Source: an uncultured archaeon
GTDB lineage: Archaea; Asgardarchaeota; Jordiarchaeia; Jordiarchaeales; Jordiarchaeaceae
DNA length: 32,000 nucleotides
Assembly (NCBI GenBank): GCA_964510585.1
Contig: CAZECW010000173.1
Span: 36,256-68,255 of the forward strand
Reading direction: 5' to 3'
This document shows, in pieces, positions 4,431 through 30,754 of the stretch; within the stretch, counting starts at the first letter, position 1, and the number at the start of each line of letters is the position of its first letter. The notes below the pieces were generated by a model. The model was given only the letters and a program-made list of their open reading frames with translations, was not told the DNA's origin and made no database searches. A program made the position numbers and the translations under genes.

Positions 4431-4651
4431 TTCTTGTTCCCCATGTGTTTCTCCTTGGTTATAATAGTATAGATTCTATCTTATGAATATAATCCTTATC
4501 AAATTATCAAAACTTATGGTTTAAATTTAAAAATATTAAAAGTAATATCAATGAAACTTTTCATAACTCTATAATTGAAAATGAAAAGTAATAGAATACT
4601 ATGTGGGTTGTTTTTATGCTACAAAGATAATATACAGTTTGGTGAAGGTTT

Positions 4652-4999: not shown

Positions 5000-5072
5000 G
5001 GCTTGGCCTAAATTTGGTAGTCTAGCTAGATTTTTATAAAAAAACTACCTTCTCAACTTTAGGTGTAAAAAA

Positions 5073-6146
5073 TTGAAGAGAAGAGCCTTAACTTATAGAG
5101 ATGCAGGAGTAGATTTATCTAAGGCTAGTGAGAGCCACAGAATTATTGGTAAATTAATTGAAAAAACCTTCTCATTGAGAAGTGGGAAATTCGGTGAAGT
5201 AGTGGGTGAGTACGGCCATTACGCGAATCTTATAGATATTGGTTCAGGAAGGGCTCTGGCGGTTCACACCGACGGGGTCGGTACCAAGGTATTGGTTGCC
5301 CAACTCATGGATAAATACGATACTGTTGGAATCGATTGTGTGGCCATGAATGTTAACGATTTAATTTGTATGGGCGCCGAACCTCTAGCCATTGTGGATT
5401 ACTTGGCAGTTGAGAGATCAGATCCTGAAATGATTGAGCAGATTATTCGAGGGCTTGTTAAGGGAGCGGAAATGGCGGGCGTAGCAATATTGGGTGGAGA
5501 GACTGCTACAATGCCCGATGTGATAAAAGGTGCGGTTGAAGGGAAAGGATTTGATTTAGCCGCCATGTGCATTGGAATGGTTTACCAAGATAAAATTGTC
5601 ACAGGAAGGAAAATAGTAGCTAATGATGTGGTGGTAGGCTTACAAAGTAGCGGTATTCACTCAAACGGACTTTCACTAGCCAGAAAAGCCCTTCTGGAAG
5701 AAGCAGGATTTAGTGTGTTTGACCCCCTGCCTAACTCGAAACAGAGTGTGGGTGAGGCTTTACTTGAACCCACCAAAATTTACGTAAAAGAAGTATTGGA
5801 AATTCTGGAAAAAGCGCAAGTGCATGGTCTTGCAAACATAACTGGTGGGGCGTTCTCAAAGCTCAACAGAATATGTTATGGTGAAATGGGAATGTTCCTT
5901 GACCAGTTACCAGAACCACAACCTATTTTTGAGACCATTAAGCAAGTGGGGAATATTAGTGACTATGAGATGTACCGGACATTTAACATGGGAGTGGGGT
6001 TTGTTGTAGTTACCCCCAGAGAGAGCTCTGAAACGGTCATAAAAATTTGTAAGAAAGCGGGCACCCAAGCTCAAATTATAGGCAAAATAGTCGCCAAAAA
6101 AGGTATAGTACTGGAAGTGTCTAAAGGGAATCTTTTGAAAATGTGA
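5073..6146 (+). CDS. purM: Phosphoribosylformylglycinamidine cyclo-ligase (AIR synthetase)
   Basis: Motifs LTYRDAGVD, TDGVGTK, GIDCVAMNVNDL, GGETA, SSGIHSNG, LLEPTKIY, NITGG and EMYRTFNMGVG. Confidence 0.97.
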   Translation: MKRRALTYRDAGVDLSKASESHRIIGKLIEKTFSLRSGKFGEVVGEYGHYANLIDIGSGRALAVHTDGVGTKVLVAQLMDKYDTVGIDCVAMNVNDLICMGAEPLAIVDYLAVERSDPEMIEQIIRGLVKGAEMAGVAILGGETATMPDVIKGAVEGKGFDLAAMCIGMVYQDKIVTGRKIVANDVVVGLQSSGIHSNGLSLARKALLEEAGFSVFDPLPNSKQSVGEALLEPTKIYVKEVLEILEKAQVHGLANITGGAFSKLNRICYGEMGMFLDQLPEPQPIFETIKQVGNISDYEMYRTFNMGVGFVVVTPRESSETVIKICKKAGTQAQIIGKIVAKKGIVLEVSKGNLLKM

Positions 6147-6226
6147 GATGCAGAGCTTATTGACAAGGCTAAAATTTATTTTCGACCTCTCACACTTTTA
6201 AGGTCGTGTTTTAAAAATAGAAGGCA

Positions 6227-8401: not shown

Positions 8402-8587
8402 TCGTTATATTCTCCACTTTTTTGTACTATAAAAGTATAATCTAGTTTCCAGAGCACAACATTAATAAAGGGAAATCCTTCTAAAAGTCTCCCTGAAAAA
8501 TTGGGGGATACCACTCAAACCACACTAAAAATTCAAAAACAAGTAGTATTATACTATTATTGCGGATTTGTCAGGGAGATTTGAAGC

Positions 8588-9244
8588 GTGAGAAGCAAGA
8601 TTAAAGTAATCGTTCTAGATTTGGACGGGACGCTGGTAGATGTGCCAGATGGGGATTTCTTTGACCAGTTACTTGTAGAATCACTTGAGGAGATTGGATG
8701 CCGTTTGCCTAGTCGTAAGCAGAGGGATCGTTTTTGGGATAGTGGGAAGGATTATCAAAAGATTTTAAGATCTTGGGGGGTAAAAGACATAGACAATTTT
8801 TGGAAGGTCTTTGACAGAAGAGATTTTGAAGCGCGCCTAAGTCTTATAAAATCTAATAAAATCAGGCCCTACGACGATGTGGTGGTTCTAGAGGATCTAC
8901 GCAAAGACTATGCACTGGGCGTGGTAACAAATACTCCACTAAACCTGGCACTCTTGGAACTAGACACATTTAATTTAACCCATTATTTTGGCTCCATTGT
9001 AGCCCTAGGAACTGTGGAACAAAAAAACGCCAAGCCGGAGCCTTACGGGATTCTTAAATGCATCAGGGATCTGCACGGCTCACCTAAAGAGTCATTAGTG
9101 GTAGGAGACAAGGATAGTGATATTATTGCAGGAATCAGAGCAGGTGCTTTTACCGCTGTAATAGTACGTTCAAAAATCAAAACCAAAGTTAAAGCGGATT
9201 TCGTGATAAACAGTCTTTATGAGCTTGAGAAAATCCTTAACTAA
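8588..9244 (+). CDS. HAD-superfamily hydrolase (phosphoglycolate phosphatase/nucleotidase-like)
   Basis: Motif I LDLDGTLVD, motif II VVTN, motif III KPEP and motif IV VGDKDSDI. Confidence 0.92.
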   Translation: MRSKIKVIVLDLDGTLVDVPDGDFFDQLLVESLEEIGCRLPSRKQRDRFWDSGKDYQKILRSWGVKDIDNFWKVFDRRDFEARLSLIKSNKIRPYDDVVVLEDLRKDYALGVVTNTPLNLALLELDTFNLTHYFGSIVALGTVEQKNAKPEPYGILKCIRDLHGSPKESLVVGDKDSDIIAGIRAGAFTAVIVRSKIKTKVKADFVINSLYELEKILN

Positions 9245-9255
9245 GTTATAAATGT

Positions 9256-9568
9256 CTATTCGAATTGAACATCGAGCAATTCACAGTCTTTTCTATCTTT
9301 AGTATCTATTTTTATAAGAGTGTAATCTGTTTCAAAAAAAATCGGAATCCTTTTCGATATACACCGTGAGACCCTCATCATCTCTAGCTATAGGAACCAC
9401 TTCAGCAACACTGTTTAAATCTATGATGCATGCATTTGAAACTTTTATCACTGCTCCATAACAGGATTTGTATTCTACAAAATTTATGAGCAAACCGCCT
9501 GCTCCCTGAATTTGGGATAATTTGTTTTTTATGCATTTCTTTGCTAATCGAGATATTTTCAACCCCAT
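9256..9568 (-). pseudogene. HesB/IscA-like small protein apparently frameshifted in a T8 homopolymer
   Basis: ATG at 9568 is preceded by GAGGT. The N-terminus (LKISRLAKKCIK...LLINFVEYKSCYG...EGLTVYIEKDSDFF) resembles the HesB fold. The frame stops at TGA just after GAT TTT TTT T. Removing one T gives ...FFETDYTLIKIDTKDRKDCELLDVQFE* ending at 9256 (103 aa). Confidence 0.5.
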
Positions 9569-9837
9569 TTTTAAACCTCAATGAAAATATGTAATTAGTC
9601 AAATAATTTTTATTATTAAGGTAATTATTTAGTGATCTTTACCTAATGCAGATAGGCGTCCTACAAGTTTTCCTAAAAAAGTGAATTATTTGATTACCAT
9701 TAAATCTACTAAAATTGCGATATTCACAAAATAAATCCATTTTAATGTATACTTCACAACAAAAACACAATATTTATTAGCATATTTAAGATTAACTATA
9801 ATATGTATGGTTATGCGGTTCACATTGGTGAAAAACC

Positions 9838-10332
9838 ATGATTCACAACTTTTACCTATTGAAAAGAAGCGGAGAATGCATAATCCACCGAAAATACGGA
9901 AGCCTAGAAACAGATGAGGATCTCGTATCAGGTTTTCTTAGCGCAATGTTCTCTTTTGGTAGAAACATAAGCGGCCAAAGCATAGAAAGTGTACTATTGG
10001 ATGATAAAAAATTTGTATACGTCTGCAATGATGACATTATATTTGCTGCCTACACGGATAGACATGACGAGATAAAAAGTAAACTTGAAAGTATCAGCCA
10101 AGAATTCATCAAAAATTATGGTAAGTTAGAGAATTGGGATGGGAACCGCGACAGGTTTGCAGACTTTTTGCCAGTTCTGGATAAGGTATTTGGGGTATCT
10201 GGGGAGGAAGCTTCTGACGACTTTTTAAATGGGATAATAGAAACTATAAAAATGGGGAAAAAGCCTTTAGATGTCTCTTGGGATGACTGGTTAAATAGAA
10301 TTAAAGAAAAGGTAAGAAAAATTAATCAATGA
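9838..10332 (+). CDS. Longin-like domain protein (Asgard eukaryotic-signature type)
   Basis: MIHNFYLLKRSGECIIHRKY...DEDLVSGFLSAMFSF...IESVLLDDKKFVY...IIFAAYTD matches the longin/sigma-adaptin-like pattern. A short C-terminal helix follows. Confidence 0.8.
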   Translation: MIHNFYLLKRSGECIIHRKYGSLETDEDLVSGFLSAMFSFGRNISGQSIESVLLDDKKFVYVCNDDIIFAAYTDRHDEIKSKLESISQEFIKNYGKLENWDGNRDRFADFLPVLDKVFGVSGEEASDDFLNGIIETIKMGKKPLDVSWDDWLNRIKEKVRKINQ

Positions 10333-10376
10333 ACATCGAACAGATAGAGACACCTTTTCACGTAGCTAAGCACTAA

Positions 10377-11576
10377 TTAGTTATTCAGTCTTGTTTTTTT
10401 AAACTGACTGTAAATTTTATCCGCTGCTCTTTTTGCTTTTAATAATGCACCGTTTCGTGTTGATTCATAGATTTGTATTGTACAAACTGGTTTCCCTTTT
10501 CTTATTACAGATCCAGGTTTTGTGATATCGAATACCCCGGACATAGTAATCTCAGGCATTATAAAATCGTATTTGGCGAACAAAATATTTTTCACGGCGT
10601 AACCTTTGCTTTGAGGAATACTTTTAGGCAATATCCCTTGACAAGCCTCTATGTGGGCTTGAACTATATTTAGCCCAGTTACCATTTCAACACACTCCAG
10701 CGTGCCTTGAAAACGAGGATTTATCTCTAATAAGTATGGTTCGCCCCTATGAATAACATAGTCTATTCCGTTTGAGCCCTTAAGATTTAATAATTCGATT
10801 AAGTTTTCGGAAGCATCTTTTATTTTTTTGTATACCTGTTCTGTGGCCTTTAGTGGCACAATGTTTCCACAATAAATAAAATCTTTTGCTCCCAGCTCAG
10901 ATAAACCAATTAACTGCTCATTAATAGAAACTACCCGCACCGATGTGCCATTTGAGAGAAGGGAGCAGCTCGCATCAGTCCCCCTAATGTATTCCTGAAT
11001 CATTACATTTCTTTGGTTCGATAACAGTTGAAATATTTCCTCAACTTCTTTAATATTCTTAGCTAAATGAATTCCTTGTCCTCCTCCTCCTTTCGTTGGT
11101 CTAACTACTACTGGTAAACCTATTAATTCCGCCGCTTCTACAGCATCTTCCACACTTTTTACAATAATTGAGTTTGGAGATCGGATACCCAACTTTTCTG
11201 CTTCACGGTAAATCCTTATTTTATCTCTAGATTTTTTAATATTTTCTGAAGTGTTACCCATTATAGGAGCTATTTTTTTGAGTTCTTCCCAAACCTGAAA
11301 TTGGTCATCAAGGCCGCTCCCTACCAAAATAAAATCAATCTGATGCTTTTCCGCCAATTTCTGAGCTAGTTCCAAGAAAAGACTAGCATGGTTTTTGGCT
11401 GTATTTGGTTCTTTGTCCAATTCGCTAACTACTAGAACTTCATCTGCATATTTATAGATGTCAACATCCCCCCAGTAATCCACTACCAGAACTTTTAGTC
11501 CTAATCTTTTTGCTGAAGAAACTATTGGTCTAGCATTGAATCCTAAGACAAGAACAGTTGACCGATTCTCAACCAA
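10377..11576 (-). CDS. ATP-grasp carboxylate-amine ligase (COG2232-like)
   Basis: Motifs VLVLGFNARPIVSSAKRLG..V.VVDYWGDVD, PVVVRPTKGGGG, IQEYIRG, YCGN, NGIDY and LEINPRFQGT. Confidence 0.85.
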   Translation of the reverse strand: MVENRSTVLVLGFNARPIVSSAKRLGLKVLVVDYWGDVDIYKYADEVLVVSELDKEPNTAKNHASLFLELAQKLAEKHQIDFILVGSGLDDQFQVWEELKKIAPIMGNTSENIKKSRDKIRIYREAEKLGIRSPNSIIVKSVEDAVEAAELIGLPVVVRPTKGGGGQGIHLAKNIKEVEEIFQLLSNQRNVMIQEYIRGTDASCSLLSNGTSVRVVSINEQLIGLSELGAKDFIYCGNIVPLKATEQVYKKIKDASENLIELLNLKGSNGIDYVIHRGEPYLLEINPRFQGTLECVEMVTGLNIVQAHIEACQGILPKSIPQSKGYAVKNILFAKYDFIMPEITMSGVFDITKPGSVIRKGKPVCTIQIYESTRNGALLKAKRAADKIYSQFKKTRLNN

Positions 11577-11578
11577 AG

Positions 11579-12334
11579 TTAAGTGGAGCCCTCCAAATCA
11601 CTAGTCTGTTTTTCACTTTCCTTTATAGCCTCTTTAAGCTTTTTTATAATTTCTTTTATTTTCATCTTTTTTGGGAGTGCCACCGAAAGTAATCTATCAT
11701 TATCGATTTGTAGTGTAATGATCATTCCTTCCCTACCGAAAATGACTGAGAAGTCACTATTTTCATCAGAAACCATACTGCTACTTATCATATGAATGGC
11801 GCTAATCATTCCCGAAAGAGTTATTGCTTCCTCTGCAGGGTGGACTATTAAGGGTACTCCCTCTTTAGTAAGGATAGCAATTGCCTTGGCCTCTGGTACC
11901 GCGCTTTTAACATTCATAAATAATCCTTTTTTAGGATATCCGGAGAGCTCTATCACTTCAGCTACTTTATGGGAAAAATTCTTAATTTTAATAATATAGT
12001 TTTCAACACCCCTGCTTTCAGCCTTCTCTCTATCAATAAGTGCCGAAAGAACCATACCACTATTGACGGGTAAAGTTATAACTAAGTTATTGGGCGTAAA
12101 GGAGAGTACGTAGTCTGGAGTTTGTTCTAATAGCTTTCCAATAATTTGGGAGGAAATCGAAAGTAGGGTGGCACTAGCGGCTGCTAACTTACTTTTATTA
12201 ACTTTCTCTTCTAGAATCACCATTGATTCCGATTTCCCCTCTTTGCTAATCAGAATTATCCCTTTTATCACCTCATCTCTTACTATTTCTTCCAACAATC
12301 GAGAAAGTTCATCACCACGATCCATTACAATCAC
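11579..12334 (-). CDS. Tandem roadblock/LC7 (MglB/LAMTOR-like) domain protein
   Basis: Two similar domains: VIKGIILISKEG...KLAAASATLLSIS and EAKAIAILTKEG...TLSGMISAIHMIS. Each is followed by the beta-strands typical of roadblock folds. Confidence 0.8.
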   Translation of the reverse strand: MIVMDRGDELSRLLEEIVRDEVIKGIILISKEGKSESMVILEEKVNKSKLAAASATLLSISSQIIGKLLEQTPDYVLSFTPNNLVITLPVNSGMVLSALIDREKAESRGVENYIIKIKNFSHKVAEVIELSGYPKKGLFMNVKSAVPEAKAIAILTKEGVPLIVHPAEEAITLSGMISAIHMISSSMVSDENSDFSVIFGREGMIITLQIDNDRLLSVALPKKMKIKEIIKKLKEAIKESEKQTSDLEGST

Positions 12335-12551
12335 CCTTTTCTACTCGTTTAGTTTGAAACATTTACACAATTTAGCGAAGAAAATTTAAGCATGGGATTC
12401 GCTTTCCCGCAAAAAAATTTTTACAGTTCGCTTATGTTTGATATTAAGGGATTTCGGTTTTAAAAAGGTTAGGTATTTTAGGATAGTCATTATTTTTAAT
12501 TAAGAGAATCAAAAAGGATTTTACTGCGAGCCAAAAAATGACATATGATTA

Positions 12552-13313
12552 ATGAATGCTTTGGGTGATCTTTTGAAGATAACTTTTTTGGGTACTGCTG
12601 GAAGTATGATTACAAAATCTCGAACTAACCTCGCTGTGCTGGTTGACGAGGATTTGCTTATTGATTGTGGGGAAGGAACTAGCCAAAAGCTTCTCGCAAT
12701 TTTAGGGGATTTATCCAAAATCGAGACTATTTTAATCTCTCATGGACACGCGGATCACATCATGGGTATACCCTCTCTCTTATGGGCAATGTGGCTGGTT
12801 AATAAGAGAACTAAAGACCTTAAAATAATAGGGCCAGATTATATTGAAACCTTGGTGACTTCCTTATTAAAGTTGGGGTATACTCCGCTAGATAGGTTAA
12901 CTTTTAGAATAAATTATGAATTTAATACCTACTCTTATGAAAATATTTTTTTCAAAGCTACTCTTCACTACCCTACAAATTTCGCTTACCGTATAGAAAG
13001 GAGGGGAAAAAGTCTTTGTTATACAGGAGATACTGCACCTTGCGAAGGGTTAATAGGTTTAGCTAAAAAATGTGATGTTCTTATACATGAAACAGCTTTT
13101 CCTGATGAACTATCAAATTTGGCCCACAAACTAAATCACAGCACACCCAGCGATGCAGGGCAACTAGCTTCTAAAGCTAATGTCAGAATTTTAGCTCTAT
13201 TTCACTGGCCAGACATTTTTGAAGGAAACGAGTCTATTCTTATCGATCAAGCCAGAAAAAGTTTCAACGGAGAAATTATCTTAGCTAAAGATTTAGACGT
13301 TTTAGAGTTGTAA
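12552..13313 (+). CDS. RNase Z-like metallo-beta-lactamase fold hydrolase
   Basis: Motifs ITFLGTAG, LIDCGEGT, SHGHADH, YTGDT, LIHET, HST and LFH. Orthology to true RNase Z is not established. Confidence 0.85.
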   Translation: MNALGDLLKITFLGTAGSMITKSRTNLAVLVDEDLLIDCGEGTSQKLLAILGDLSKIETILISHGHADHIMGIPSLLWAMWLVNKRTKDLKIIGPDYIETLVTSLLKLGYTPLDRLTFRINYEFNTYSYENIFFKATLHYPTNFAYRIERRGKSLCYTGDTAPCEGLIGLAKKCDVLIHETAFPDELSNLAHKLNHSTPSDAGQLASKANVRILALFHWPDIFEGNESILIDQARKSFNGEIILAKDLDVLEL

Positions 13314-13517
13314 CCAAACTTTTCAAATTTTTTCATTGACATTTAATAAATTTGAAGAAAAGGGGGTTAAATTTTTTTATTTTCGCAAAATATTTAAGGT
13401 ATTTTTGCGATAAATTAAATAGCAAAGCAACAAAATTGAAATTTATGCATGGTTTCGAAAGAAAAAGGAACCGTGAAGCTAAACCTGTTTAAAGTGCAAG
13501 TGAGCAGGGTGGCGATT

Positions 13518-13967
13518 TTGAAGGTCAAGGATGTAGATAGGAAAATACTGAAACTTCTTCAAGAAGACTCTCGGAGACCTTTTAGAAAGATTGCTACGGA
13601 TCTAAACATTTCTGAACCAACATTGTATAACCGAGTCAAAAAACTTCAGGAAGAAAGGGTTATCGAAGGGTTTACAACAATCATTAATCCTGAAGCAGTG
13701 GGTCTTACGAGTCTAGCGTTTATAATGCTTACGGTAGAGCCTTCAAAAGAGGAAGAAATTATCAACAGATTATCAATTTTTCCAGAAATTATGGAATTGC
13801 ACCTTTTATTTGGCGACAAGAATATTCTCGTTAAAGTTCGAGACAGAGACATAGAATCAATAAGGGATTTCATTACAAAAAAGCTAAAATCAATTGAGGG
13901 TTTGTTAAAAGTAGAGTGTTACCTTTCCTTAAAAACCAAAAAAGAAAGCCACACAATACCCGTTTAG
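13518..13967 (+). CDS. Lrp/AsnC family transcriptional regulator
   Basis: DVDRKILKLLQEDSRRPFRKIATDLNISEPTLYNRVKKLQEERVIEGF (HTH) plus a RAM domain. TTG at 13518 after GGGTGG is preferred over the track start at 13449. Confidence 0.93.
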   Translation: MKVKDVDRKILKLLQEDSRRPFRKIATDLNISEPTLYNRVKKLQEERVIEGFTTIINPEAVGLTSLAFIMLTVEPSKEEEIINRLSIFPEIMELHLLFGDKNILVKVRDRDIESIRDFITKKLKSIEGLLKVECYLSLKTKKESHTIPV

Positions 13968-16723: not shown

Positions 16724-17782
16724 TTAGAGTAACAATTTTTCAATTGTCTTGGTAAGGATTTCGACTGTTTCCAAAAACTGCTTTAAAGATATTTTTTCGT
16801 ATTCCGTATGATCTAAGCGAGGATCACCAGGACCGTAGGTAACAGCCGCAGTTTTGATGCTGTTCCCATAAATATTCATATCACCTGTTCCAGTTTTTTT
16901 AATTAGACGGGCTTCCTCTCCAGTAACTTCCCTTATTGAACTACTTAAGGCACTGACTAATGGCGACCTTTTATCAGATTCATAAGGCTCAGTTTTATCT
17001 ATTACTCTAATTCTGCATTTTACTCCATTGTTTCCCTCTTTATGCTCTTGAAGTATGCGATTTATTACTTCATAGATTTCATCACAACTCATCTTGAATG
17101 GTATCCTAACCCTTACTTCTGCCATGCTTTGATTTTCAACACCATTCAATCGTCCTAATGACACGCTTACCGAATCCATTTTTGATTTGGATTGATACTT
17201 TCCTAATTCATTCTTGATTTTCAGCCAAACCGAAATTAGTTCTTCATTAGCGTTTTTAACGGTAGGATTTGCGGGATGGCCGGGCTCAGTTCCAACCTCA
17301 ATTTCAACGTTTAAACTTCCTTTATATCCCACCACAATAAAAACGGTGTTACAAGGTTCCCCAAAAATTGAGTAGTCTGCCTTTAAACCTTTATTTATTA
17401 TATGTATTATTCCTTCAGATGTCCCCTCTTCTTGCACTGTACCCACAACAACTATACTTCCTTTGATTTTCCTACCCACAAAATTTGCCGCAGCAAGTAT
17501 AAGGGCGGCTAAAGAGGATTTCGCGTCAACCGCTCCCCGACCAGTTAATTCACCGTTAATTATCTGTACTGGTAAGTACCCTTCCACTGTATCCATATGA
17601 CCGCAGAGTAGTAGAGTTGGATTCCCTTTTCCAATCCTACCTATGACGTTTCCAACTTCATCTATCTCTGCATCAAAACCCAATTCCTTCATCTGTTGGA
17701 AGAGAAATTTTGCAAGTTCCGCTTCTTTTCCCGAGGGACTATAGATTTCAAGCATTTTTTTAAGAAAATCTTGAGGCTCCAT
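16724..17782 (-). CDS. lysK: [LysW]-lysine/[LysW]-ornithine hydrolase (M20 family)
   Basis: Motifs IYSPSGKE, GNVIG, LLCGHMDTV, GRGAVDAK, VQEEG, GEP, TGDMN and YGPGDPRLDHT. Last gene of the lysW operon. Confidence 0.92.
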   Translation of the reverse strand: MEPQDFLKKMLEIYSPSGKEAELAKFLFQQMKELGFDAEIDEVGNVIGRIGKGNPTLLLCGHMDTVEGYLPVQIINGELTGRGAVDAKSSLAALILAAANFVGRKIKGSIVVVGTVQEEGTSEGIIHIINKGLKADYSIFGEPCNTVFIVVGYKGSLNVEIEVGTEPGHPANPTVKNANEELISVWLKIKNELGKYQSKSKMDSVSVSLGRLNGVENQSMAEVRVRIPFKMSCDEIYEVINRILQEHKEGNNGVKCRIRVIDKTEPYESDKRSPLVSALSSSIREVTGEEARLIKKTGTGDMNIYGNSIKTAAVTYGPGDPRLDHTEYEKISLKQFLETVEILTKTIEKLLL

Positions 17783-17785
17783 TCT

Positions 17786-18973
17786 TCAGGTCTCCAATAC
17801 CTCCGCCAAAATCTCCGCAGTTTTATCAACTTGTTCCTTTTCAATAACTAACGGGGGTAGCAGTCTAAGGGTGGTTAGTCCCGAAGTTAAAACCAAAAGT
17901 CCCTTTTCCAAAGATTTTACCACATAATCCTTTACTCTGAAACGTAAATCGATGCCAATCATTAAACCTAGTCCTCTAACCTCTTTTACAATCTTAGAGT
18001 TCTCCCCAATAATCTCCAACTTATTTTTTAAGCGTAATCCCAATTCCTTAGATCTTTGGGGAAGTTTCTCTTCTATTATAACGTCTATTGCAGCGTTTGC
18101 AGCAGCACAAGCAAGTGGGTTTCCACCAAAAGTTGAGGCATGTTCACTTTCTTTAAGGGAACCCATAACCTCCTCTCTAGCGATAGTAGCACCCATAGGC
18201 ACTCCACCAGCAATTCCTTTAGCCACAGCCATAATGTCAGGAGTCACCTTCCAATGCATACAGGCAAACATTTCCCCGGTTCTACCAAACCCAGTCTGAA
18301 CCTCATCAAATATTAAAAGAACATTCTTTTCATCGCAAATATCTCTTAACTCCTCCAGATAACCGTTGGGCGCAGGATTAACTCCCGCTTCTCCCTGCAC
18401 AGGCTCCACCAAGACCGCAGCAGTGTTCTCATTTATAGCCTCTCGAACTTCTTCAGCGTCACCAAATTTTACATGAGTAAATCCCGGAACCAAAGGTTCG
18501 AAAGGCTCCCTGTACTTTTTCTCCCAAGTAGCTGAGAGCGCCCCCAAAGTACGTCCATGGAATCCTTTAGTCATAGCTATAATTTCCTTCTTGCCTGTGT
18601 ATTTGCGAGCCAGCTTTATGGCGCACTCTACTGCTTCTGCTCCACTATTTGAAAGAAAAGTTCTTGTTAGGCCTTTGGGAACTATTTTTGTTATTTTTTC
18701 TACAAGTTCCGCTCTGACGTCGTTATATAGTATACCGGAGCAGGTGATAAGCTTCTCAGCCTGATTTTTTATGGCTTCTACGACTTTGGGGTGACAGTGC
18801 CCGGTGATGCCTACTCCATGTCCTGCTACACAATCTATATACTCTCTGCCTTCGGTGTCCCAGACCAGGGCGCCTTTTCCCCTCACAATTACTACTGGTC
18901 TTTTAGCGTAGGTTTGGGCTTCGTAGGTATCTTCTAGAAACATATATCTTTTGGCATTATTCGACTGACTCAT
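17786..18973 (-). CDS. lysJ: [LysW]-semialdehyde aminotransferase (class III PLP)
   Basis: Motifs YIDCVAG, GHCHP, SNSGAEAVE, FHGRTLG, EPVQGEAG, DEVQTGFGRTG, AKG and HASTFGGNPLAC, plus operon context. Confidence 0.92.
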   Translation of the reverse strand: MSQSNNAKRYMFLEDTYEAQTYAKRPVVIVRGKGALVWDTEGREYIDCVAGHGVGITGHCHPKVVEAIKNQAEKLITCSGILYNDVRAELVEKITKIVPKGLTRTFLSNSGAEAVECAIKLARKYTGKKEIIAMTKGFHGRTLGALSATWEKKYREPFEPLVPGFTHVKFGDAEEVREAINENTAAVLVEPVQGEAGVNPAPNGYLEELRDICDEKNVLLIFDEVQTGFGRTGEMFACMHWKVTPDIMAVAKGIAGGVPMGATIAREEVMGSLKESEHASTFGGNPLACAAANAAIDVIIEEKLPQRSKELGLRLKNKLEIIGENSKIVKEVRGLGLMIGIDLRFRVKDYVVKSLEKGLLVLTSGLTTLRLLPPLVIEKEQVDKTAEILAEVLET

Positions 18974-19769
18974 TAGTTATCACCGTACAGTTTTTCTCTT
19001 CCAAAGCATTAATGAGGGGGTGTTCTCCAATTCCAGAAGCTATTACCACTTCAGGTACACCTTCGCGTAGCGCTTCCAGCGCCGCAAATATTTTTCTCCG
19101 CATACCGGGGCCAACTTTTTCCATGGCTTGTTTTGCTTCCGCTATGCTTAATTTTGTTATTACCTTCTCGTTTTCGAGAACTCCGGGTACGTCTGTCATA
19201 TCTAACAGTTTATCCGCTTTTATGGCTCCTGCAATGCTTGCAGCTGCCCTGTCTCCGTCTACGTTCAGGTTTTCTCCTTCTTTACCGATTGCTACTGCGC
19301 CTATAACTGGGACATAACCTGCATTTAATAGTAGTTCTAGAAGTTTAGTGTTAACTTGCACCACTTTTCCCGTGTAGTCACCATCCATTAGGAGTACCTT
19401 GTTTCCCTCTTTAACCTTGATTCTTGGCTTCCTTTCTGCTACTAAAAGTCCCCCATCAATCCCAGACAGCCCTATGGCATTCAAACCCTCCTTTAATAGA
19501 ACTGTTACCAGCTTTTTGTTTACCGTACCTGCTATGACCATGGTGTAAATTTCTGCGGTTTCAGCATCCGTGTATCTACTTCTAAAACCCGTAGGGGAGG
19601 TGACGAATTTTTGCTCTTTACCCAGTTTTTGCGCAATTTCGGTGACAATTTTTGCTCCACCATGTATTATAACTATCTGGTGTTCCTTGGAGAGTTCTTT
19701 TACGTCGCGCGCCAAGGGGGATAAATCCTCGTCAATTAAGCTACCGCCAATTTTTACTACTATTTTCAT
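18957..19769 (-). CDS. lysZ: [LysW]-aminoadipate/[LysW]-glutamate kinase
   Basis: Motifs VVKIGGS, IIHGG, FVTSPTGFRSRYTD, GLSGIDG, LNVDGDRAA, TDVPG and GMRRK. Confidence 0.93.
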   Translation of the reverse strand: MKIVVKIGGSLIDEDLSPLARDVKELSKEHQIVIIHGGAKIVTEIAQKLGKEQKFVTSPTGFRSRYTDAETAEIYTMVIAGTVNKKLVTVLLKEGLNAIGLSGIDGGLLVAERKPRIKVKEGNKVLLMDGDYTGKVVQVNTKLLELLLNAGYVPVIGAVAIGKEGENLNVDGDRAAASIAGAIKADKLLDMTDVPGVLENEKVITKLSIAEAKQAMEKVGPGMRRKIFAALEALREGVPEVVIASGIGEHPLINALEEKNCTVITNESVE

Positions 19770-19785
19770 TTAATCGCATCCTCGA

Positions 19786-20835
19786 TTAATATGGGTGAAG
19801 TCCCGGGAAAGTTAGACCAGTAGTTTCGTCTATACCTTCCATAATGTTCATACACTGCACTGCTTGTCCCGAAGCACCCTTAATTAGATTGTCTAAAGCG
19901 GAGAGAACTACTATGCGTGGCATGTGCTCATCTAACTCGAATCCAATATCGCAGTAGTTGGTTCCAACAACAACTTTGGGATCCGGCAATCGGTAGATTC
20001 CAGTTTTCTGCTTAACCAGTCTTATGAACGGCTCATCGCCATAGAATTCCCTAAAAATACTCCAAACATCTTTTTCGGTAAGTTCATTTTCCAGAAACAT
20101 ATGTATAGTAGATAGAATACCTCGCACCATATCCACCGCATGAGCGGAGAACGCGACTTTCACTGACTTCCCAGCTACCGCACTTAGTTCCTGCTCGATT
20201 TCGGCAGTGTGCCTGTGATTAGTAACCTTATATGGTCTCACGACATTTGCCCTTTCCGGGTGGTGGGTAGACAAGGAAAATTCTCTTCCCGAGGCTGAAG
20301 AACCCACTTTTGAATCGATTACTATTCTGTTCAAGTCTACAGCCCCAGTGCTAACAAGGGGGGCTGCCCCCAGTATGGCGCTTGAAGCTAGACATCCGGG
20401 ACAAGAAACCAAGTTAGCTTTTTTAATTTCCTCTTTGTGAAGTTCGGATATTCCATATACCGATTTGCCTAGCAGTTCGGGGTGTTCATGTTTACCATAA
20501 TAGTACTCATAGACCTCTTGGCTTTTAATTCTGAAATCCGCACTCAAATCTATTACCCTTACTCCTGTTTGAAGTAGTTCAGGCACTATGTTCATAGAAG
20601 CTCGGTGGGGCACGTTGAGAAAGACATAGTCACATTTATCGGAAACCCTGTTCACGTCATACTCCTCAAACTTTATCTGGGTTATTCCTCTCAGATTCGG
20701 GTGCACACTACTCAAATACTTTCCGGAAAACTGCCTAGAAGTTACACAGGTTAACTCGGCTTTAGGGTGGAAAAGTAACAGTCTTACTAGATCTCCACCC
20801 GTATATCCTGAAGCTCCAACAACTCCAGCTCTCAT
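19786..20835 (-). CDS. lysY: [LysW]-L-2-aminoadipate/glutamate-phosphate reductase (ArgC-like)
   Basis: Motifs VVGASGYTGG, HPNLRG, DLSADFR, CPGC, GSSASG, HHPER, HRHTAEI, RGILST and DNLIKGASGQAVQ. ATG at 20835 overlaps the lysX stop (ATGA). Confidence 0.93.
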   Translation of the reverse strand: MRAGVVGASGYTGGDLVRLLLFHPKAELTCVTSRQFSGKYLSSVHPNLRGITQIKFEEYDVNRVSDKCDYVFLNVPHRASMNIVPELLQTGVRVIDLSADFRIKSQEVYEYYYGKHEHPELLGKSVYGISELHKEEIKKANLVSCPGCLASSAILGAAPLVSTGAVDLNRIVIDSKVGSSASGREFSLSTHHPERANVVRPYKVTNHRHTAEIEQELSAVAGKSVKVAFSAHAVDMVRGILSTIHMFLENELTEKDVWSIFREFYGDEPFIRLVKQKTGIYRLPDPKVVVGTNYCDIGFELDEHMPRIVVLSALDNLIKGASGQAVQCMNIMEGIDETTGLTFPGLHPY

Positions 20836-21695
20836 TTTAACATCTCCAAACAATAATCAATTAACATTCCAGGAATATCTACACCTGTTAAGGGTACAGT
20901 TGTGTGATACTCCATCGTGTGATTAACTTCATTAACAAGCATACCTCTTGGGCTTTCTAATATATCTACCCCATAAACTCCTTCCCCAATAGCTCTTGCA
21001 GCCCTTAGACTCAAATCCTCAATCTCGGGAGTTACGGGGCAAATTTCCGCTCGCCCTCCGAGGGCGGTGTTCGTCCGCCACTCACCCTGGCCGGCAACTC
21101 GATAAATGGCAGTAACGACCTCATCACCAATGATAAAGCTTCTAATATCCCTATTGTTCACCTTTTCTACAAATTCCTGAATATAATAAATCTGGTAAAG
21201 TGCTCCCATAGACTCTCTACTTTCAATTATCGCCTTTGCAGATTGGGGATCCTTTAACGGAGCAATGAGTCTTCCCCAACTGCCAAATACGGGTTTAATC
21301 ACCGCAGGATATTTCAGTTCCTCTAAAATCTGAAGAGCTGAATCTATATCAACAGCCAAAAATGTTCTTGGGCTAGGCACACCTGCTTTGGTTAGAGCCA
21401 GCGTTGTTAAAAGCTTGTCTGCGCAAATACTGGAAACCGCATAAGAATTAACCACTGGATACCCTTTACTCTCCAAAATTTTGGTGATATAGAGACCCTT
21501 AAATGTACTCACCATACGCTGAAGATAAATGTCCGCCTCTGGAATATGATCACAGTTTCCAGTAGCTTCTAAGAAAATACTTTTCGCGTCAATGACTAGC
21601 AATTTGACATTTTTATTACGCGCAGCTTGAATTAGTGCCTTCTCATCCCATCTCACTCGATCACTTATCATGCCGATAGTTACCAATTCACCCAC
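20832..21695 (-). CDS. lysX: LysW-amino acid ligase (LysX/ArgX, RimK-like ATP-grasp)
   Basis: Motifs DRVRWDEK, DKLLT, YPAVIKPVFGSWGR, YIQEFV, RDIR, AIYR, WRTNTA, GVDILE and NEVNHTME. Directly downstream of lysW. Confidence 0.92.
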   Translation of the reverse strand: MGELVTIGMISDRVRWDEKALIQAARNKNVKLLVIDAKSIFLEATGNCDHIPEADIYLQRMVSTFKGLYITKILESKGYPVVNSYAVSSICADKLLTTLALTKAGVPSPRTFLAVDIDSALQILEELKYPAVIKPVFGSWGRLIAPLKDPQSAKAIIESRESMGALYQIYYIQEFVEKVNNRDIRSFIIGDEVVTAIYRVAGQGEWRTNTALGGRAEICPVTPEIEDLSLRAARAIGEGVYGVDILESPRGMLVNEVNHTMEYHTTVPLTGVDIPGMLIDYCLEMLK

Positions 21696-21745: not shown

Positions 21746-21919
21746 TTATTGGCCCCAATCCTCGCCTTCGATCTCTGCGACCTTAAGCTGCACCTTATTC
21801 TTTTCTATTGCCACCACTTCAAGCTCGGATCCGCAATCTGGGCACTCAACAATCTCTCTTAAAACTGGGTCTTCGAGATCCAAATCGGCACCACACTCTG
21901 GACATTTACCCTTAACCAT
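21746..21919 (-). CDS. lysW: Amino-group carrier protein LysW (57 aa) with a non-canonical EDWGQ C-terminus; missed by the ORF track
   Basis: Manual translation gives MVKGKCPECGADLDLEDPVLREIVECPDCGSELEVVAIEKNKVQLKVAEIEGEDWGQ*. RBS GAGGTGA. First gene of the operon. Confidence 0.95.
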   Translation of the reverse strand: MVKGKCPECGADLDLEDPVLREIVECPDCGSELEVVAIEKNKVQLKVAEIEGEDWGQ

Positions 21920-22263
21920 TATCCAATCACCTCTGTGATATTAACAAGAATCTTTGAACCACTTAACCGTAAAGTGGATTTAGGTATTTTTCCAATGTTG
22001 CTAAAAATTGAGCAAAAGATTGTAAAACTAAATGAACTTTTCAACACTTTTTCCATTCCAACATTATATTTAATGGTATATAATTATTAATTGTGGGATA
22101 AAAAAGATTAACTTAAATAATTTTTCCCTCCCAAAAACTATTTCTACGAAGTTCCAGATAATTGAAAACTAGCAATAAAATAATTTATTAGTAAAAAGCG
22201 ATAATGATTTAAGCCATTTTTAAAAGAATATACACCTAAATGGTTTCAAGGAAGTAAAGTGCA

Positions 22264-27686: not shown

Positions 27687-28574
27687 TCAGAATGGGGAGT
27701 TAGCATAATTTTTTATTAGTGCTCCTTGATAGATTGCGTCTAGGAAGTTTTCCATTGTGGGTTCCCATTCTAGGGCGATTATGGGTTTAGTTTTTGGCGA
27801 GTATATTTGTGTGCCTTGGATGCTTGCGCGGCAGCATCTTACTATGTAGAAGTCGTTCTTAGTGGTTTCCTTTCTTGCATAGTGTGTTGGGCATATGTCT
27901 ATTTTTTGCATGGGGATTTTTGGGTTTAATTCTTTTATAGTTTCGAAGGTTACTGGGCAGCCTATTATGGTTATTGGTTGGTTTAGATTTGTTATTTTTT
28001 GGGCATCTGCGTCTAAGAATATGAATTTTTTTCCGGTGCTAGCACTGCATGGAAAAACTATGGGGTAATTTTTTGAGGGGATTTCTTTGAGAATGTCTAT
28101 TGTTTTTATTTGGAATTTAGTTTCTTTGCGTACTAGTCCTTGTTTTTGTGCTTTTTGGACTTGGTCTTGTAGTTTGGCTGGTGGAGGGATGATGTCAATT
28201 ATTCCCACCTTAATGTTGGGAGGTTCAAATAGTGCGAGACCTATGTGTTCGAATTTGGATTTGAAGACTACACTTCTTGTTTCTTTTTTTAGATGCTTTG
28301 TGGCGTTTTTAAGTATCTCGATTTTTTCTGTAGGGTCAATGTCGGAAAAATCCAATGTTAACGTTTGGTTTTCGTCGCTTAGTTGGATATAGCTGGTTAT
28401 AGTTCTCATGAGGCTGTTGCCCGTAGTTTTGATTTGGTATACGGATAGGCCTGTGGTTGACTGGATTATGAGATATTTTGTGGTGTGAAATACATTTCTT
28501 CCTTTTAGAATTGGTTTGTTTTCGTGTTTAGTTTTTATAACGTTTACTTGTTGAGGGTGGGGTATTCTTGGCAT
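27687..28574 (-). CDS. Conserved-looking Cys-motif protein of unknown function, co-transcribed with a radical SAM gene
   Basis: 295 aa, ATG after GGTGA, 21 nt downstream of the radical SAM stop. Motifs VFHTTKYLI, FEH, DIIPP, FPCSAS, IGCP, ICP, RCC and EW resemble an uncharacterised family I recall from methanogens (not verified). Confidence 0.7.
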   Translation of the reverse strand: MPRIPHPQQVNVIKTKHENKPILKGRNVFHTTKYLIIQSTTGLSVYQIKTTGNSLMRTITSYIQLSDENQTLTLDFSDIDPTEKIEILKNATKHLKKETRSVVFKSKFEHIGLALFEPPNIKVGIIDIIPPPAKLQDQVQKAQKQGLVRKETKFQIKTIDILKEIPSKNYPIVFPCSASTGKKFIFLDADAQKITNLNQPITIIGCPVTFETIKELNPKIPMQKIDICPTHYARKETTKNDFYIVRCCRASIQGTQIYSPKTKPIIALEWEPTMENFLDAIYQGALIKNYANSPF

Positions 28575-28595
28575 GTTTTGGTCACCATTTAATTT

Positions 28596-29684
28596 TTAGA
28601 GGTCTTTTTGGGGAACTATGTCGCAGCCTGTACATTTGAGGCACATAGTTTTGAATTTGTTTACGTCTAGACCTTTTTCCTTTAGGATCTGTTTGTGTTT
28701 TGTTGCATGTTTTATTAGTCTTTGGGCGGTGGGTCGTTGTGCCTTATTGTTTAGTGTTTGTTGCAATTGTTGCTTTATTAGAGGATTTAAGTTTAGGGGC
28801 CTTAGGGATGCGATCACTCCCCAGTGTGCTAATGTTTCTGCTCCTTGGTCTATTGTTTCTTCTTTTTCCCCAAGTCCTATTATGATGTTTGAGCAGACGC
28901 AGTTTTCTCCAAAGACTTTTGCGGCATATTTGACCATTTTTAGGTTGTTTTGATAGTTGAATTCGCTACAAACTTTAGAGAAGATTTGGGGATCAAAGCT
29001 CTCAACGTTTATTTTTATTTCGTCTGCTCCAGCGTCATATAGCATATCTATGTGTTTTTCTTCTTCGACGTAGGGTTCAACTCCTATGGGTAGTCTATCC
29101 CCAAATTCTCGGCGGAGGGCTTCCACCACCTGGCACATGTGTTTTACGCTTTCGGTAGGTGTGGAAAAAACTCCTGTGGTGAGTGCAACAGCCGTTAAAC
29201 CCTTATTTGCCACCCGTTTCACGATTCTGGTCACCACTTGGGGCTGGAGGGTTCTATGAGTGATGTGAGATTGTATTAAGGGAGTTGCGCAAAATTTGCA
29301 GTGGTATTTGCAGTTTGAATCTAGATTGAGGAATGCTTGTTCTGGACAATGGAGGAGGCTTTCTACCTGCTTTGCAGGAAGCCAGTCCACCCCATCCTTC
29401 TTTATGACTTTACGTTTGGCGTCGTAAGTGTAGGGCGTTTCTGACTGTTTCTCTGTAAGAGTAAGACGCACTAATCTCTCTTGGCCTAACCTTAGAAAGA
29501 TAGAATTTTGGCCTGTGCTTGGACCTGCGGTGGAGCGATCTATGAGGAAGGGAAGCTCTTTAACCTCCTTTACAAAGATCGTTCCTTTTTCTAGGAGTTC
29601 CGCTTTCATTATAGTTATTTTTGGTATTTCCTCCTGCACCTGGAAACCCTCATATTTATATTGAAAAAATGTTTTGAGTACCAA
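28596..29684 (-). CDS. Radical SAM protein, biotin-synthase-related (COG2516/LipS2-like); true start may be internal (e.g. ATG at 29609)
   Basis: CKYHCKFC (CxxxCxxC), STAGP, HCPEQA, LTTGV, IKINVES, SNIIIGLGE and a C-terminal TMCLKCTGCD. Confidence 0.85.
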   Translation of the reverse strand: MVLKTFFQYKYEGFQVQEEIPKITIMKAELLEKGTIFVKEVKELPFLIDRSTAGPSTGQNSIFLRLGQERLVRLTLTEKQSETPYTYDAKRKVIKKDGVDWLPAKQVESLLHCPEQAFLNLDSNCKYHCKFCATPLIQSHITHRTLQPQVVTRIVKRVANKGLTAVALTTGVFSTPTESVKHMCQVVEALRREFGDRLPIGVEPYVEEEKHIDMLYDAGADEIKINVESFDPQIFSKVCSEFNYQNNLKMVKYAAKVFGENCVCSNIIIGLGEKEETIDQGAETLAHWGVIASLRPLNLNPLIKQQLQQTLNNKAQRPTAQRLIKHATKHKQILKEKGLDVNKFKTMCLKCTGCDIVPQKDL

Positions 29685-29707
29685 AGAAGTTCTCTATGTG
29701 AACAGAA

Positions 29708-30754
29708 GTGAAAGAACAGAAAAATCTTGCGGCGATTCTAGACCAAGCATTGGATAGAAAAATCACCTTTCAGGAAGCGCAAAGCCTTTTAGAAGTTGAG
29801 GGTGAAAATTTCGACAAACTATTGAAAGTGGCGCGAATAGTAACTGATCGGGAAAAGGGGCGCATTCTACACGTTTATTATCCTTCACGATTGTTCCCCT
29901 CCATATCCGTAACGGGAAGAAACTGTGAATTGAAATGTGCACACTGCAATCGCCACTATCTTCAACATATGATACCCGCTTCGACTCCTGATAGGCTTTA
30001 CCAAGTGTGCCTCGATTTGCACCATAAGGGGGCGGTGGGTTGTTTGATAAGTGGGGGAAGCACCATCCAAGGATACATTCCACTTGAAACATACTTAGAT
30101 GCAATTAGGCGCGTGAAGGAAAATACTGATCTCATTTTGAATGTTCATACAGGGTTGTTGAGTTGGGATTTGGCGGTAGGGTTAGCTAAGTCTAATATTG
30201 ATGTCGCTTCAATTGATGTAGTTGGCGATAATGAAACCATAACTAAAGTTTACGGATTAAATAAAACGGTTGAGGATTATGAGAAGGCTCTTTACACTCA
30301 TTTGCAGGCAGGAATCAGACATGTGGTTCCGCATATTTGCGTGGGTTTAAACTTTGGGAGGATAGGGGGAGAAATCAGGGCTCTGGAAATAATAAGAAGA
30401 GTGGGTACGGAATTGTTGATTTTTATTACAATTATTCCCACGAGAGGTACTCTTATGGAGAATGTTTCTCCTCCCAGCGTGGAGGCAGTGGTAAAGGTGA
30501 TTGCCATTGCACGGTTAATGTTTAGAGACGCATCCATATCCTTGGGATGTATGCGTCCCGGTGGCCTTCGTAGGAGAAGGCTGGATCATTTGGCTTTGTA
30601 TGTAGTTGATAGAATGGCAGTCCCTACACCTAGCACCTTAAGAGAAGCCGAAAATATGGGTCTAAAAATTGAAAGATATCCCTCTTGTTGTGCGTTGCCA
30701 AGTGAATTTGAATTTAAAATAAGAAACAAGCTTTCGAAGGGAAACCAGTTTTAG
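29708..30754 (+). CDS. Radical SAM protein, LipS1-type archaeal lipoyl synthase subunit (COG1856-like)
   Basis: SISVTGRNCELKCAHC, LISGG, HTG, VPHICVGL, IPTRGT, then LGCMRP and a C-terminal SCC, which are the GC(M/A)R and CC motifs I recall for Thermococcus LipS1. Overlaps the lipoate ligase stop by 4 nt. Confidence 0.78.
   Translation: MKEQKNLAAILDQALDRKITFQEAQSLLEVEGENFDKLLKVARIVTDREKGRILHVYYPSRLFPSISVTGRNCELKCAHCNRHYLQHMIPASTPDRLYQVCLDLHHKGAVGCLISGGSTIQGYIPLETYLDAIRRVKENTDLILNVHTGLLSWDLAVGLAKSNIDVASIDVVGDNETITKVYGLNKTVEDYEKALYTHLQAGIRHVVPHICVGLNFGRIGGEIRALEIIRRVGTELLIFITIIPTRGTLMENVSPPSVEAVVKVIAIARLMFRDASISLGCMRPGGLRRRRLDHLALYVVDRMAVPTPSTLREAENMGLKIERYPSCCALPSEFEFKIRNKLSKGNQF

What the first reader, a model, noticed from the sequence alone, without database searches (positions are those of the whole stretch)
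21746..21919. LysW carrier ends in EDWGQ, lacking the glutamate that carries the substrate
Seen: the last codons are GAT TGG GGC CAA TAA, giving D-W-G-Q-stop, within an otherwise complete and intact lysWXYZJK operon. Established: LysX/ArgX activates the gamma-carboxyl of the C-terminal Glu of LysW (EDWGE) to attach aminoadipate or glutamate, and a Gln side chain cannot form that acyl-phosphate. Inference: the carrier needs prior deamidation, the ligase uses the terminal alpha-carboxyl or a different chemistry, or this is a one-base (G to C) error or inactivation. I have an unverified recollection of EDWGQ in some other archaeal LysW entries, which would argue against an error.
Basis: partly seen in the sequence, partly recalled or inferred. 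Interest (0 to 1): 0.7.

Follow-up and report, generated by a model that had tools for sequence, protein, structure and literature searches.

The report
Glutamine-capped LysW lysine carrier, recently arisen
The small carrier protein this hot-spring Asgard archaeon uses to build lysine really is encoded with a terminal glutamine where the known chemistry needs a glutamate. The change is inherited, kept by selection and recurs across many microbes, so an undescribed uncapping or attachment step must exist.

Summary
The 57-aa LysW at 21746-21919 (-) ends EDWGQ (CAA TAA) and heads an intact lysW-X-Y-Z-J-K operon.

It is not an error. Contigs from four hot-spring studies and three sister species genomes carry the same CAA. 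Two other species of the genus, and every outgroup examined, have Glu.

After the single G-to-C change, lysW shows 8 synonymous and 1 non-synonymous variable sites, and the five enzyme genes have dN/dS of 0.02-0.19. No enzyme was retooled: at conserved sites the stem of the Gln clade has 0 changes in LysK and 1 in LysX.

Each genome of the genus also has a second, Glu-ended carrier in an arginine cluster.

Gln-ended LysW is widespread: ammonia-oxidising archaea, Heimdallarchaeota, Ignavibacteriota, Gammaproteobacteria and Chloroflexota. It made up 12 of 136 diverse cluster representatives, and no third terminal residue was seen. It is the only LysW detected in two cultured organisms.

This scan has found the Gln variant before on other DNA. 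Here it sits with the ordinary metal hydrolase LysK, not a cysteine hydrolase, and it arose within one genus.

My best reading (about 0.5) is a capped pro-carrier whose side-chain amide is converted once, after which the normal cycle runs. The converting enzyme is unknown. No paper in the searched library mentions EDWGQ.

The parts
21746..21919 (-). lysW, a 57-aa zinc-ribbon amino-group carrier protein ending EDWGQ (stop codon included)
   Evidence: TIGR01206 62.3 bits, cut-off 53.2. 81-88% identical to Glu-ended proteins, one of them named Freyarchaeota LysW by NCBI.
21749..21751 (-). Terminal Gln57 codon CAA. The Glu-type sisters have GAA or GAG, so the change is one G-to-C step at 21751.
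   Evidence: No variant in contigs of four runs.
21926..21933 (-). Shine-Dalgarno-like GAGGTGAT, 6 nt upstream of the lysW ATG
   Evidence: Read directly. The same upstream reading GDWIM is present in the sister genomes.
20832..21695 (-). lysX, the ATP-grasp ligase that loads the carrier. It has the GSWGR motif and the LysX-type WRTNTA signature.
   Evidence: TIGR02144 314.5 bits, cut-off 275.6. (3VPD 5.9e-71, 1UC8 1.4e-66; motifs visible in the alignment). Motif meaning from PMC10433800.
19786..20853 (-). lysY (argC-type reductase)
   Evidence: TIGR01850 429.1 bits, cut-off 233.6.
18957..19769 (-). lysZ, [LysW]-aminoadipate/glutamate kinase
   Evidence: NF010662 262.6 bits, cut-off 194.
17786..18973 (-). 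lysJ aminotransferase
   Evidence: TIGR00707 485 bits, cut-off 410.
16724..17782 (-). lysK, an M20 metallohydrolase that releases lysine from the carrier. It is a candidate uncapping enzyme (inference).
   Evidence: TIGR01902 287 bits, cut-off 163.1; NF003367 310 bits, below its cut-off of 363.

Best explanation
Gln57 is a genuine, inherited cap on a working lysine carrier. A single GAA-to-CAA change arose in the common ancestor of four Jordarchaeia species, in the carrier of an ordinary lysWXYZJK operon. The carrier is still used. I infer that its side-chain carboxamide is converted once per molecule into the normal gamma-linked state. This could happen by hydrolysis to Glu (by LysK, by one of the two stand-alone class-II-amidotransferase-like hydrolases, or by another amidase). 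It could also happen by ATP-driven activation of the amide in LysX. From the first release by LysK onward the carrier is the ordinary Glu form and cycles normally. Because the carrier is recycled, a very weak side activity would be enough. That would explain why Glu-to-Gln is tolerated without any retooling of the enzymes and why it has arisen repeatedly. Shown here: the Gln is real, it is inherited, selection on the operon continues, the enzymes did not change with it, the variant is widespread, and the terminus is only ever Glu or Gln. Inferred: the conversion itself and which enzyme performs it.
For: Real and inherited:
- The same CAA is present in G000, G001, G003 and G004, and in four metagenome assemblies.
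- G002, G005 and all outgroups examined have GAR.
- The LysX tree places the Gln clade (support 99/94) inside the genus (100/99).

Still selected:
- Within the Gln clade, lysW has 8 synonymous and 1 non-synonymous variable sites (binomial P = 2.6e-5 under neutrality).
- dN/dS is 0.02-0.09 for lysX, lysY, lysZ and lysJ, and 0.09-0.19 for lysK.

No retooling:
- At sites invariant in the outgroup and both Glu-type sisters, the Gln-clade stem has 0 changes in LysK, 0 in LysY, 1 in LysX (F115V), 3 in LysZ and 2 in LysJ. This is no more than on the Glu-type sister branches.
- No LysX column separates Gln-type from Glu-type across lineages, and GSWGR is kept.

Gln-type carriers work elsewhere:
- The only TIGR01206 match in Ca. 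Nitrosocosmicus agrestis SS and in Stygiobacter electus 09-Me ends in Gln.
- Gln-type carriers sit in full operons in many lineages.

The side-chain carbonyl matters:
- Among the 150 best 50%-identity representatives, 136 end in [ED]W[GA]X. Of these, 124 are Glu, 12 are Gln and none is anything else.
- With the last codon left open to any codon not starting with G, 79 of 80 metagenome loci end in Gln (77 full-length, using both CAG and CAA, plus 2 truncated copies) and none in another residue.

Precedent:
- Pup is encoded with a C-terminal Gln in some actinobacteria and is deamidated by Dop, the same enzyme that removes Pup from its targets.
- The Gln amide oxygen is proposed to attack ATP in Dop (PMC8599861).
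Against: - No deamidase is identified.
- LysK-family enzymes recognise the amino-acid leaving group; they also take N-acetyl-lysine and N-acetyl-ornithine (PMC12998189). Ammonia would therefore be a poor leaving group for LysK.
- The stand-alone Ntn hydrolases are also present in the Glu-type sister species, so they are not specific to the Gln clade.
- If Gln matters only for the first turnover, its long conservation with synonymous CAA/CAG variation in ammonia oxidisers and Heimdallarchaeota needs a further advantage that I cannot name.
- All genomes of this genus keep a Glu-ended second carrier that could mask a defect.
- There are no protein-level data of any kind.
Confidence: 0.5

Rival explanations
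1. Alpha-carboxyl route. LysX, a RimK-family ligase, attaches aminoadipate to the free alpha-carboxylate of the terminal Gln. The carrier then stays Gln permanently, and LysZ, LysY, LysJ and LysK work on an alpha-linked conjugate.
For: - RimK relatives ligate to alpha-carboxylates; one search shows family matches to the RimK, MptN and CofF alpha-L-glutamate ligases.
- LysK and LysJ accept other N-acyl groups (PMC12998189), so an alpha-linked N-acyl-lysine could be released.
- A permanent role for Gln would explain its long conservation with both codons in other lineages.
Against: - LysX and all downstream enzymes are essentially unchanged on the branch where Gln arose.
- Gln is isosteric with Glu, so an unchanged pocket should place the amide, not the alpha-carboxylate, at the phosphorylation site (inference).
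- If the alpha-carboxylate were the handle, other terminal residues should occur. Only Glu or Gln is seen: 136 of 136 representatives and 79 of 80 loci in the open-codon scan.
Confidence: 0.15
2. The Gln carrier no longer carries anything. The Glu-ended second carrier from the arginine cluster serves LysX as well, as one LysW serves both ligases in Sulfolobus. LysW-Q57 is kept for another role, or has not yet decayed.
For: - Every genome of the genus has a second carrier ending EEDWGE next to argG, argH, a second ligase, a kinase and a hydrolase.
- E54A in a haloarchaeal ArgW abolishes function (PMC10433800).
- The enzymes did not change with the Gln.
Against: - lysW stays under purifying selection in four species (8 synonymous, 1 non-synonymous), with its ribosome-binding site and its place at the head of the operon intact.
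- An unreactive look-alike would compete for LysX and should be selected against (inference).
- Elsewhere, Gln-type LysW is the only LysW detected, so Gln does not in itself mean a dead carrier.
Confidence: 0.15
3. A sequencing or assembly error, or a rare allele picked up by the assembler.
For: The genome is a metagenome-assembled genome, and the difference from the canonical motif is a single base.
Against: No variant at 21749-21751 in contigs of four runs from four studies, including a strain about 97.6% identical. The same codon is present in three other species genomes.
Confidence: 0.01

Closest known systems
LysW/ArgW amino-group carrier proteins of Thermus thermophilus, Sulfurisphaera tokodaii and Thermococcus kodakarensis (PDB 3WWL, 3VPB, 5K2M), with the LysX, LysZ, LysY, LysJ and LysK enzymes
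   Same: Zinc-ribbon fold signature, acidic tail ...EDWG-, position at the head of a lysWXYZJK operon, and a LysX with GSWGR and the LysX-type signature.
   Different: All three solved carriers end in Glu, whose gamma-carboxyl is the attachment site (PMC10433800). Here the residue is Gln, which has no such carboxyl.
Pup, Dop and PafA of actinobacteria
   Same: A small protein whose C-terminal Glu side chain is activated by phosphorylation for amide-bond formation. In some lineages it is encoded as Gln and in others as Glu. The enzyme that removes the conjugate (Dop) also deamidates the Gln form (PMC8599861).
   Different: The proteins and enzymes are unrelated (glutamine-synthetase-like versus ATP-grasp and M20). 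Pup tags proteins for degradation, whereas LysW is a recycled biosynthetic carrier. Deamidation of LysW has not been shown.
Gln-ended LysW in operons with a Cys-nucleophile (class-II-amidotransferase-like) hydrolase in place of LysK. These occur in bacteria and Heimdallarchaeota and were noted earlier in this scan.
   Same: The same terminal EDWGQ on a LysW that heads a LysX-LysY-...-LysZ-LysJ operon.
   Different: Those operons lack M20 LysK, and their LysX forms a separate clade (100/100). The window's operon has the ordinary LysK and a LysX of the Glu-type clade. Its Gln arose separately and recently.
Gln-ended LysW of ammonia-oxidising archaea (Nitrososphaera, Nitrosocosmicus, marine relatives)
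   Same: Gln-ended carrier combined with M20 LysK, for example lysW(Q)-lysX-lysK in Nitrosocosmicus.
   Different: A separate origin on the LysX tree and evidently old there. In Nitrosocosmicus it is the only carrier found, whereas the Jordarchaeia keep a second Glu-ended carrier.
RimK and ribosomal protein S6
   Same: LysX belongs to the RimK family.
   Different: RimK extends the alpha-carboxylate of a C-terminal Glu. There is no evidence that LysX does so here.

Membership tests
LysW/ArgW amino-group carrier protein | Small zinc-ribbon protein matching the curated LysW model | tested here: met
   TIGR01206 62.3 bits against a cut-off of 53.2. The archaeal domain model NF041070 scores 64.7 against 75, below its cut-off. 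Two CxxC pairs are present. PDB LysW 3WWL matches at 8.2e-14.
LysW/ArgW amino-group carrier protein | C-terminal EDWGE motif whose last Glu supplies the gamma-carboxyl for attachment | tested here: not met
   The tail is EDWGQ. EDWG is kept and the terminal Glu is replaced by Gln.
LysW/ArgW amino-group carrier protein | Encoded next to its ligase LysX/ArgX and the LysZ, LysY, LysJ and LysK enzymes | tested here: met
   The order lysW-X-Y-Z-J-K on the minus strand, with all genes intact. The same order and intact genes are found in five sister genomes.
LysW/ArgW amino-group carrier protein | Covalent loading with aminoadipate or glutamate by LysX and release by LysK | not testable with these tools
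   Needs biochemistry or mass spectrometry.
LysX (lysine-type ligase, as opposed to ArgX) | GSWGR motif that binds the carrier tail, and the Asn-Thr signature of aminoadipate-specific LysX | tested here: met
   GSWGR and WRTNTA are seen in the alignment to 3VPD and 1UC8. The meaning of the motifs comes from PMC10433800. The second ligase, on contig C84, reads WRSNAT.
Pup-like pro-form (Gln-encoded, deamidated before use) | Demonstrated conversion of the terminal Gln to Glu by a dedicated or pathway enzyme | not testable with these tools
   This is an analogy only (PMC8599861).
Gln-LysW operon type with a Cys-hydrolase | A class-II-amidotransferase-like hydrolase inside the operon in place of LysK | tested here: not met
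   The window operon has M20 LysK and no such gene. The Heimdallarchaeota hydrolase has only a weak match elsewhere in the genome (E = 0.004). That match is to a stand-alone GATase_4 protein also present in the Glu-type sisters.

The most novel reading that the evidence does not exclude
LysX itself handles the Gln. The ATP-grasp ligase would phosphorylate the side-chain amide oxygen, giving an imidoyl phosphate as proposed for PupQ in Dop. It would then pass the acyl group to the amino group of aminoadipate with loss of ammonia. This would be an ATP-driven transamidation not known for ATP-grasp enzymes. It would make Gln-ended carriers directly competent in every lineage, whatever release enzyme is present.
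Probability: 0.12. Interest if true: 0.85.

Novelty: new variant of a known kind. Interest (0 to 1): 0.62.

Why it matters
The LysW pathway is the textbook case of a protein used as a protecting group in amino-acid synthesis, and its chemistry is defined by the terminal Glu. About one in eleven diverse LysW clusters, including carriers of the globally abundant ammonia-oxidising archaea, encode Gln instead. No paper in the searched library mentions this. Either there is an unrecognised maturation step, a biosynthetic parallel to Pup deamidation, or there is new ligase chemistry.

This window offers the cleanest natural experiment found so far. The switch happened within one genus. Glu-type sister species serve as controls, the operon is unchanged, and the enzymes did not co-change. 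A direct swap experiment (Q57 against E57 with the same LysX and LysK) should therefore be informative.

Tried and rejected
- Sequencing error: rejected.
- RNA evidence: no RNA holder was listed, so expression could not be examined.
- Co-variation of the terminal residue with LysX: no discriminating column in 89 LysX sequences. F115V on the Gln-clade stem is not shared by other Gln lineages, and Thermus LysX has Thr there.
- Co-variation with LysK: no conserved-site change on the stem.
- A Gln-clade-specific amidase: the operon-type Cys hydrolase of Heimdallarchaeota has no close homologue in this genome. The two stand-alone GATase_4 proteins were considered, and the one tested (C187) is also in the Glu-type sisters.
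It was replaced by patterns anchored on the zinc knuckle. These sample only CAA-TAA ends or TGTCC-type knuckles with a last codon not starting with G.
- A protein search with the Heimdallarchaeota LysW returned only 3 hits.
- Whether all Cys-hydrolase operons have Gln could not be judged, because my census loci were chosen for Gln.
- DAP-pathway absence is only suggested: the lysA and dapA matches are below their cut-offs, while homocitrate synthase is above its cut-off.
- No complex or structure prediction was run, because it could not distinguish Glu from Gln chemistry.

Full report
**1. What is there.** The minus-strand ORF 21746-21919 encodes a 57-aa protein with two CxxC knuckles. Its tail is EDWGQ, and the last codons are GAT TGG GGC CAA TAA. 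It passes the curated LysW model (TIGR01206, 62.3 bits against a cut-off of 53.2). It is followed on the same strand by LysX, ArgC/LysY, LysZ, LysJ and LysK, all intact. A GAGGTGAT ribosome-binding site lies 6 nt before the ATG. LysX has the GSWGR motif said to bind the EDWGE tail, and the Asn-Thr signature of aminoadipate-specific LysX (PMC10433800). The closest database proteins carry names such as Freyarchaeota. Sister contigs are titled Candidatus Jordarchaeia, and the DNA occurs in hot-spring metagenomes.

**2. It is not an error.** Contigs of four runs from four studies cover the codon without a variant. One run, at depth 56, may be the source sample. Another holds a strain differing at 24 of 1001 bases. 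Three further species-representative genomes of the genus (G001, G003, G004) have the same CAA TAA, each with its own nearby differences. G002 and G005 of the same genus have GAG and GAA. All outgroup Jordarchaeia and other Asgard LysW examined next to LysX of this clade end in Glu. On a maximum-likelihood LysX tree the four Gln genomes form one clade (99/94) inside the genus (100/99). So this was one G-to-C change in a recent common ancestor.

**3. The gene and the operon are still under selection.** Among the four Gln genomes, lysW has 8 synonymous and 1 non-synonymous variable sites (P = 2.6e-5 if neutral). Pairwise dS within the clade is 0.03-0.45. dN/dS is 0.02-0.09 for lysX, lysY, lysZ and lysJ, and 0.09-0.19 for lysK. 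All six genes are intact in all six genomes of the genus.

**4. Nothing else changed with it.** I used three genomes of the neighbouring family as outgroup. I counted replacements on the stem of the Gln clade at sites that are invariant in the outgroup and in both Glu-type sisters.
- LysW: 1 (E57Q itself).
- LysX: 1 (F115V).
- LysY: 0.
- LysZ: 3.
- LysJ: 2.
- LysK: 0.

These counts are no higher than on the two Glu-type sister branches. Across 89 LysX sequences from Gln-type and Glu-type operons, no column separates the two types.

**5. A second carrier exists.** Contig C84 of the same genome carries argG, argH, a LysW-like gene ending EEDWGE, a second RimK-family ligase (WRSNAT signature), a second kinase and a second M20 hydrolase, with a further gene I read by context as argF on the opposite strand. 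The C84 genes other than lysW2 were named from neighbourhood and ORF sequence, not scanned against family models. All six genomes of the genus have this Glu-ended carrier. Homocitrate synthase is present above its cut-off, while lysA and dapA matches are below theirs. The window's operon is therefore probably the lysine route, and the C84 cluster the arginine route.

**6. Gln-ended LysW is common.**
Of the 80 loci fetched, 79 encode a zinc-ribbon protein ending EDWGQ. They come from Nitrososphaera, Nitrosocosmicus, Nitrosopumilales, Heimdallarchaeota, Jordarchaeia, Ignavibacteriota, Gammaproteobacteria, Chloroflexota and others.
- Among 400 Asgard genomes, Gln-ended LysW occurs in this genus, in one Heimdallarchaeota family (three genera, using both CAA and CAG) and in one further genome.
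- In an unselected sample (the 150 best 50%-identity representatives found with a LysW profile), 136 end in [ED]W[GA]X. Of these, 124 are Glu, 12 are Gln and none is anything else.
- A metagenome scan with the last codon open to anything not starting with G gave Gln in 79 of 80 loci (61 CAG and 16 CAA among the 77 full-length matches, plus 2 truncated copies) and no other residue. This sample is dominated by ammonia oxidisers.
- The LysX tree needs at least two, and most simply three, changes of type.
- Within ammonia oxidisers, one locus carries a Glu-ended carrier whose tail matches the Gln-ended Nitrosocosmicus carriers.

**7. Operon types.** Bacteria and Heimdallarchaeota have lysW(Q)-X-Y-[Cys hydrolase]-Z-J without LysK. 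Nitrosocosmicus has lysW(Q)-X-K with the M20 hydrolase. The Jordarchaeia have the full canonical operon with M20 LysK. So Gln is not confined to operons with the Cys hydrolase, contrary to two earlier notes of this scan.

In Ca. Nitrosocosmicus agrestis SS and Stygiobacter electus 09-Me, the only LysW-family match is the Gln-ended one. I infer that Gln-ended carriers function in vivo. A very divergent second carrier could have been missed.

**8. Mechanism.** Established chemistry needs the gamma-carboxyl of the terminal Glu, and E54A in a haloarchaeal ArgW gives an arginine auxotroph (PMC10433800). Three lines of evidence bear on what happens to the Gln:
- Only Glu or Gln is ever found at the terminus.
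- Gln is isosteric with Glu.
- LysX did not change when Gln arose.

From these I infer that the side-chain carbonyl remains the point of action. The amide is converted once, and after the first LysK release the carrier is Glu. A recycled carrier needs only one conversion per molecule, so a very weak amidase side activity would do (inference). The Pup system is a precedent. Pup is encoded as Gln in some actinobacteria, and the de-conjugating enzyme Dop also deamidates it. The amide oxygen is proposed to attack ATP there (PMC8599861).

Weak points of this reading:
- No deamidase is identified.
- LysK-type enzymes recognise the amino-acid leaving group (PMC12998189).
- The stand-alone GATase_4 hydrolases are not specific to the Gln clade.
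- Long conservation of Gln elsewhere suggests a benefit I cannot name.

The rivals are alpha-carboxyl ligation and a retired carrier backed up by the second LysW. Both are less well supported, for the reasons given under the rival explanations.

**9. Novelty.** No paper in the searched library contains EDWGQ, and papers on LysW describe only the Glu form. This scan has reported Gln-ended LysW before in other genomes. This window adds three things. It is a recent, within-genus origin in a canonical LysK operon. Selection on the operon continued after the change. And the enzymes did not co-change with it.

Noticed in passing
G000 contig C84 (L058 about 3139-10557; lysW2 at L002 1501-1674): A second carrier cluster: argG, argH, a LysW-like gene ending EEDWGE, a second RimK-family ligase (WRSNAT signature), a second kinase and a second M20 hydrolase, with a likely argF on the other strand. 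It lacks its own reductase and aminotransferase, which are presumably shared with the window's operon. Genes other than lysW2 were named from context, not from family scans.
   Followed up: partly
L036 (G059:C8) 6313-13589: The Heimdallarchaeota operon is lysW(Q)-lysX-lysY, then a 216-aa protein starting Met-Cys with weak class-II amidotransferase matches, then a 669-aa fusion of an amino-acid kinase domain with a LysJ-type aminotransferase. An 811-aa penicillin-amidase-family protein and a GNAT gene follow.
   Followed up: partly
G038 (L024 and L052): One Asgard genome has three LysW-like genes: two Glu-ended copies in tandem and a third, Gln-ended copy with its own ligase. That ligase groups with the LysX clade of the Cys-hydrolase operons.
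   Followed up: partly
L090 1353-1550 and 7210-7407: A Nitrososphaeraceae contig carries both a Gln-ended and a Glu-ended LysW, each next to its own ligase. The Glu-ended tail (PAQSVGEDWGE) matches the Gln-ended Nitrosocosmicus carriers, which shows Glu/Gln switching within one lineage.
   Followed up: partly
window 18957-19769 (lysZ): Two of the three conserved-site replacements in LysZ on the stem of the Gln clade are also Glu to Gln (E47Q, E138Q). This may be chance, a mutational bias, or a change of the surface that meets the acidic carrier.
   Followed up: no
window 10377-12334: An ATP-grasp protein (399 aa) lies directly next to a Roadblock/LC7-domain protein. Their function is unknown and they are unrelated to the lysine operon.
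   Followed up: no
window 27687-30754: A DUF7714 protein lies next to two radical-SAM proteins and a lipoate/biotin ligase-family gene. This may be a cofactor or modification cluster.
   Followed up: no
G000 C145:7116-7901 and C187:85126-85899: Two stand-alone class-II-amidotransferase-like (GATase_4, Met-Cys start) hydrolases. The C187 copy sits beside a gene that looks like a prephenate dehydratase (pheA; not scanned), and it also occurs in the Glu-type sister species.
   Followed up: partly
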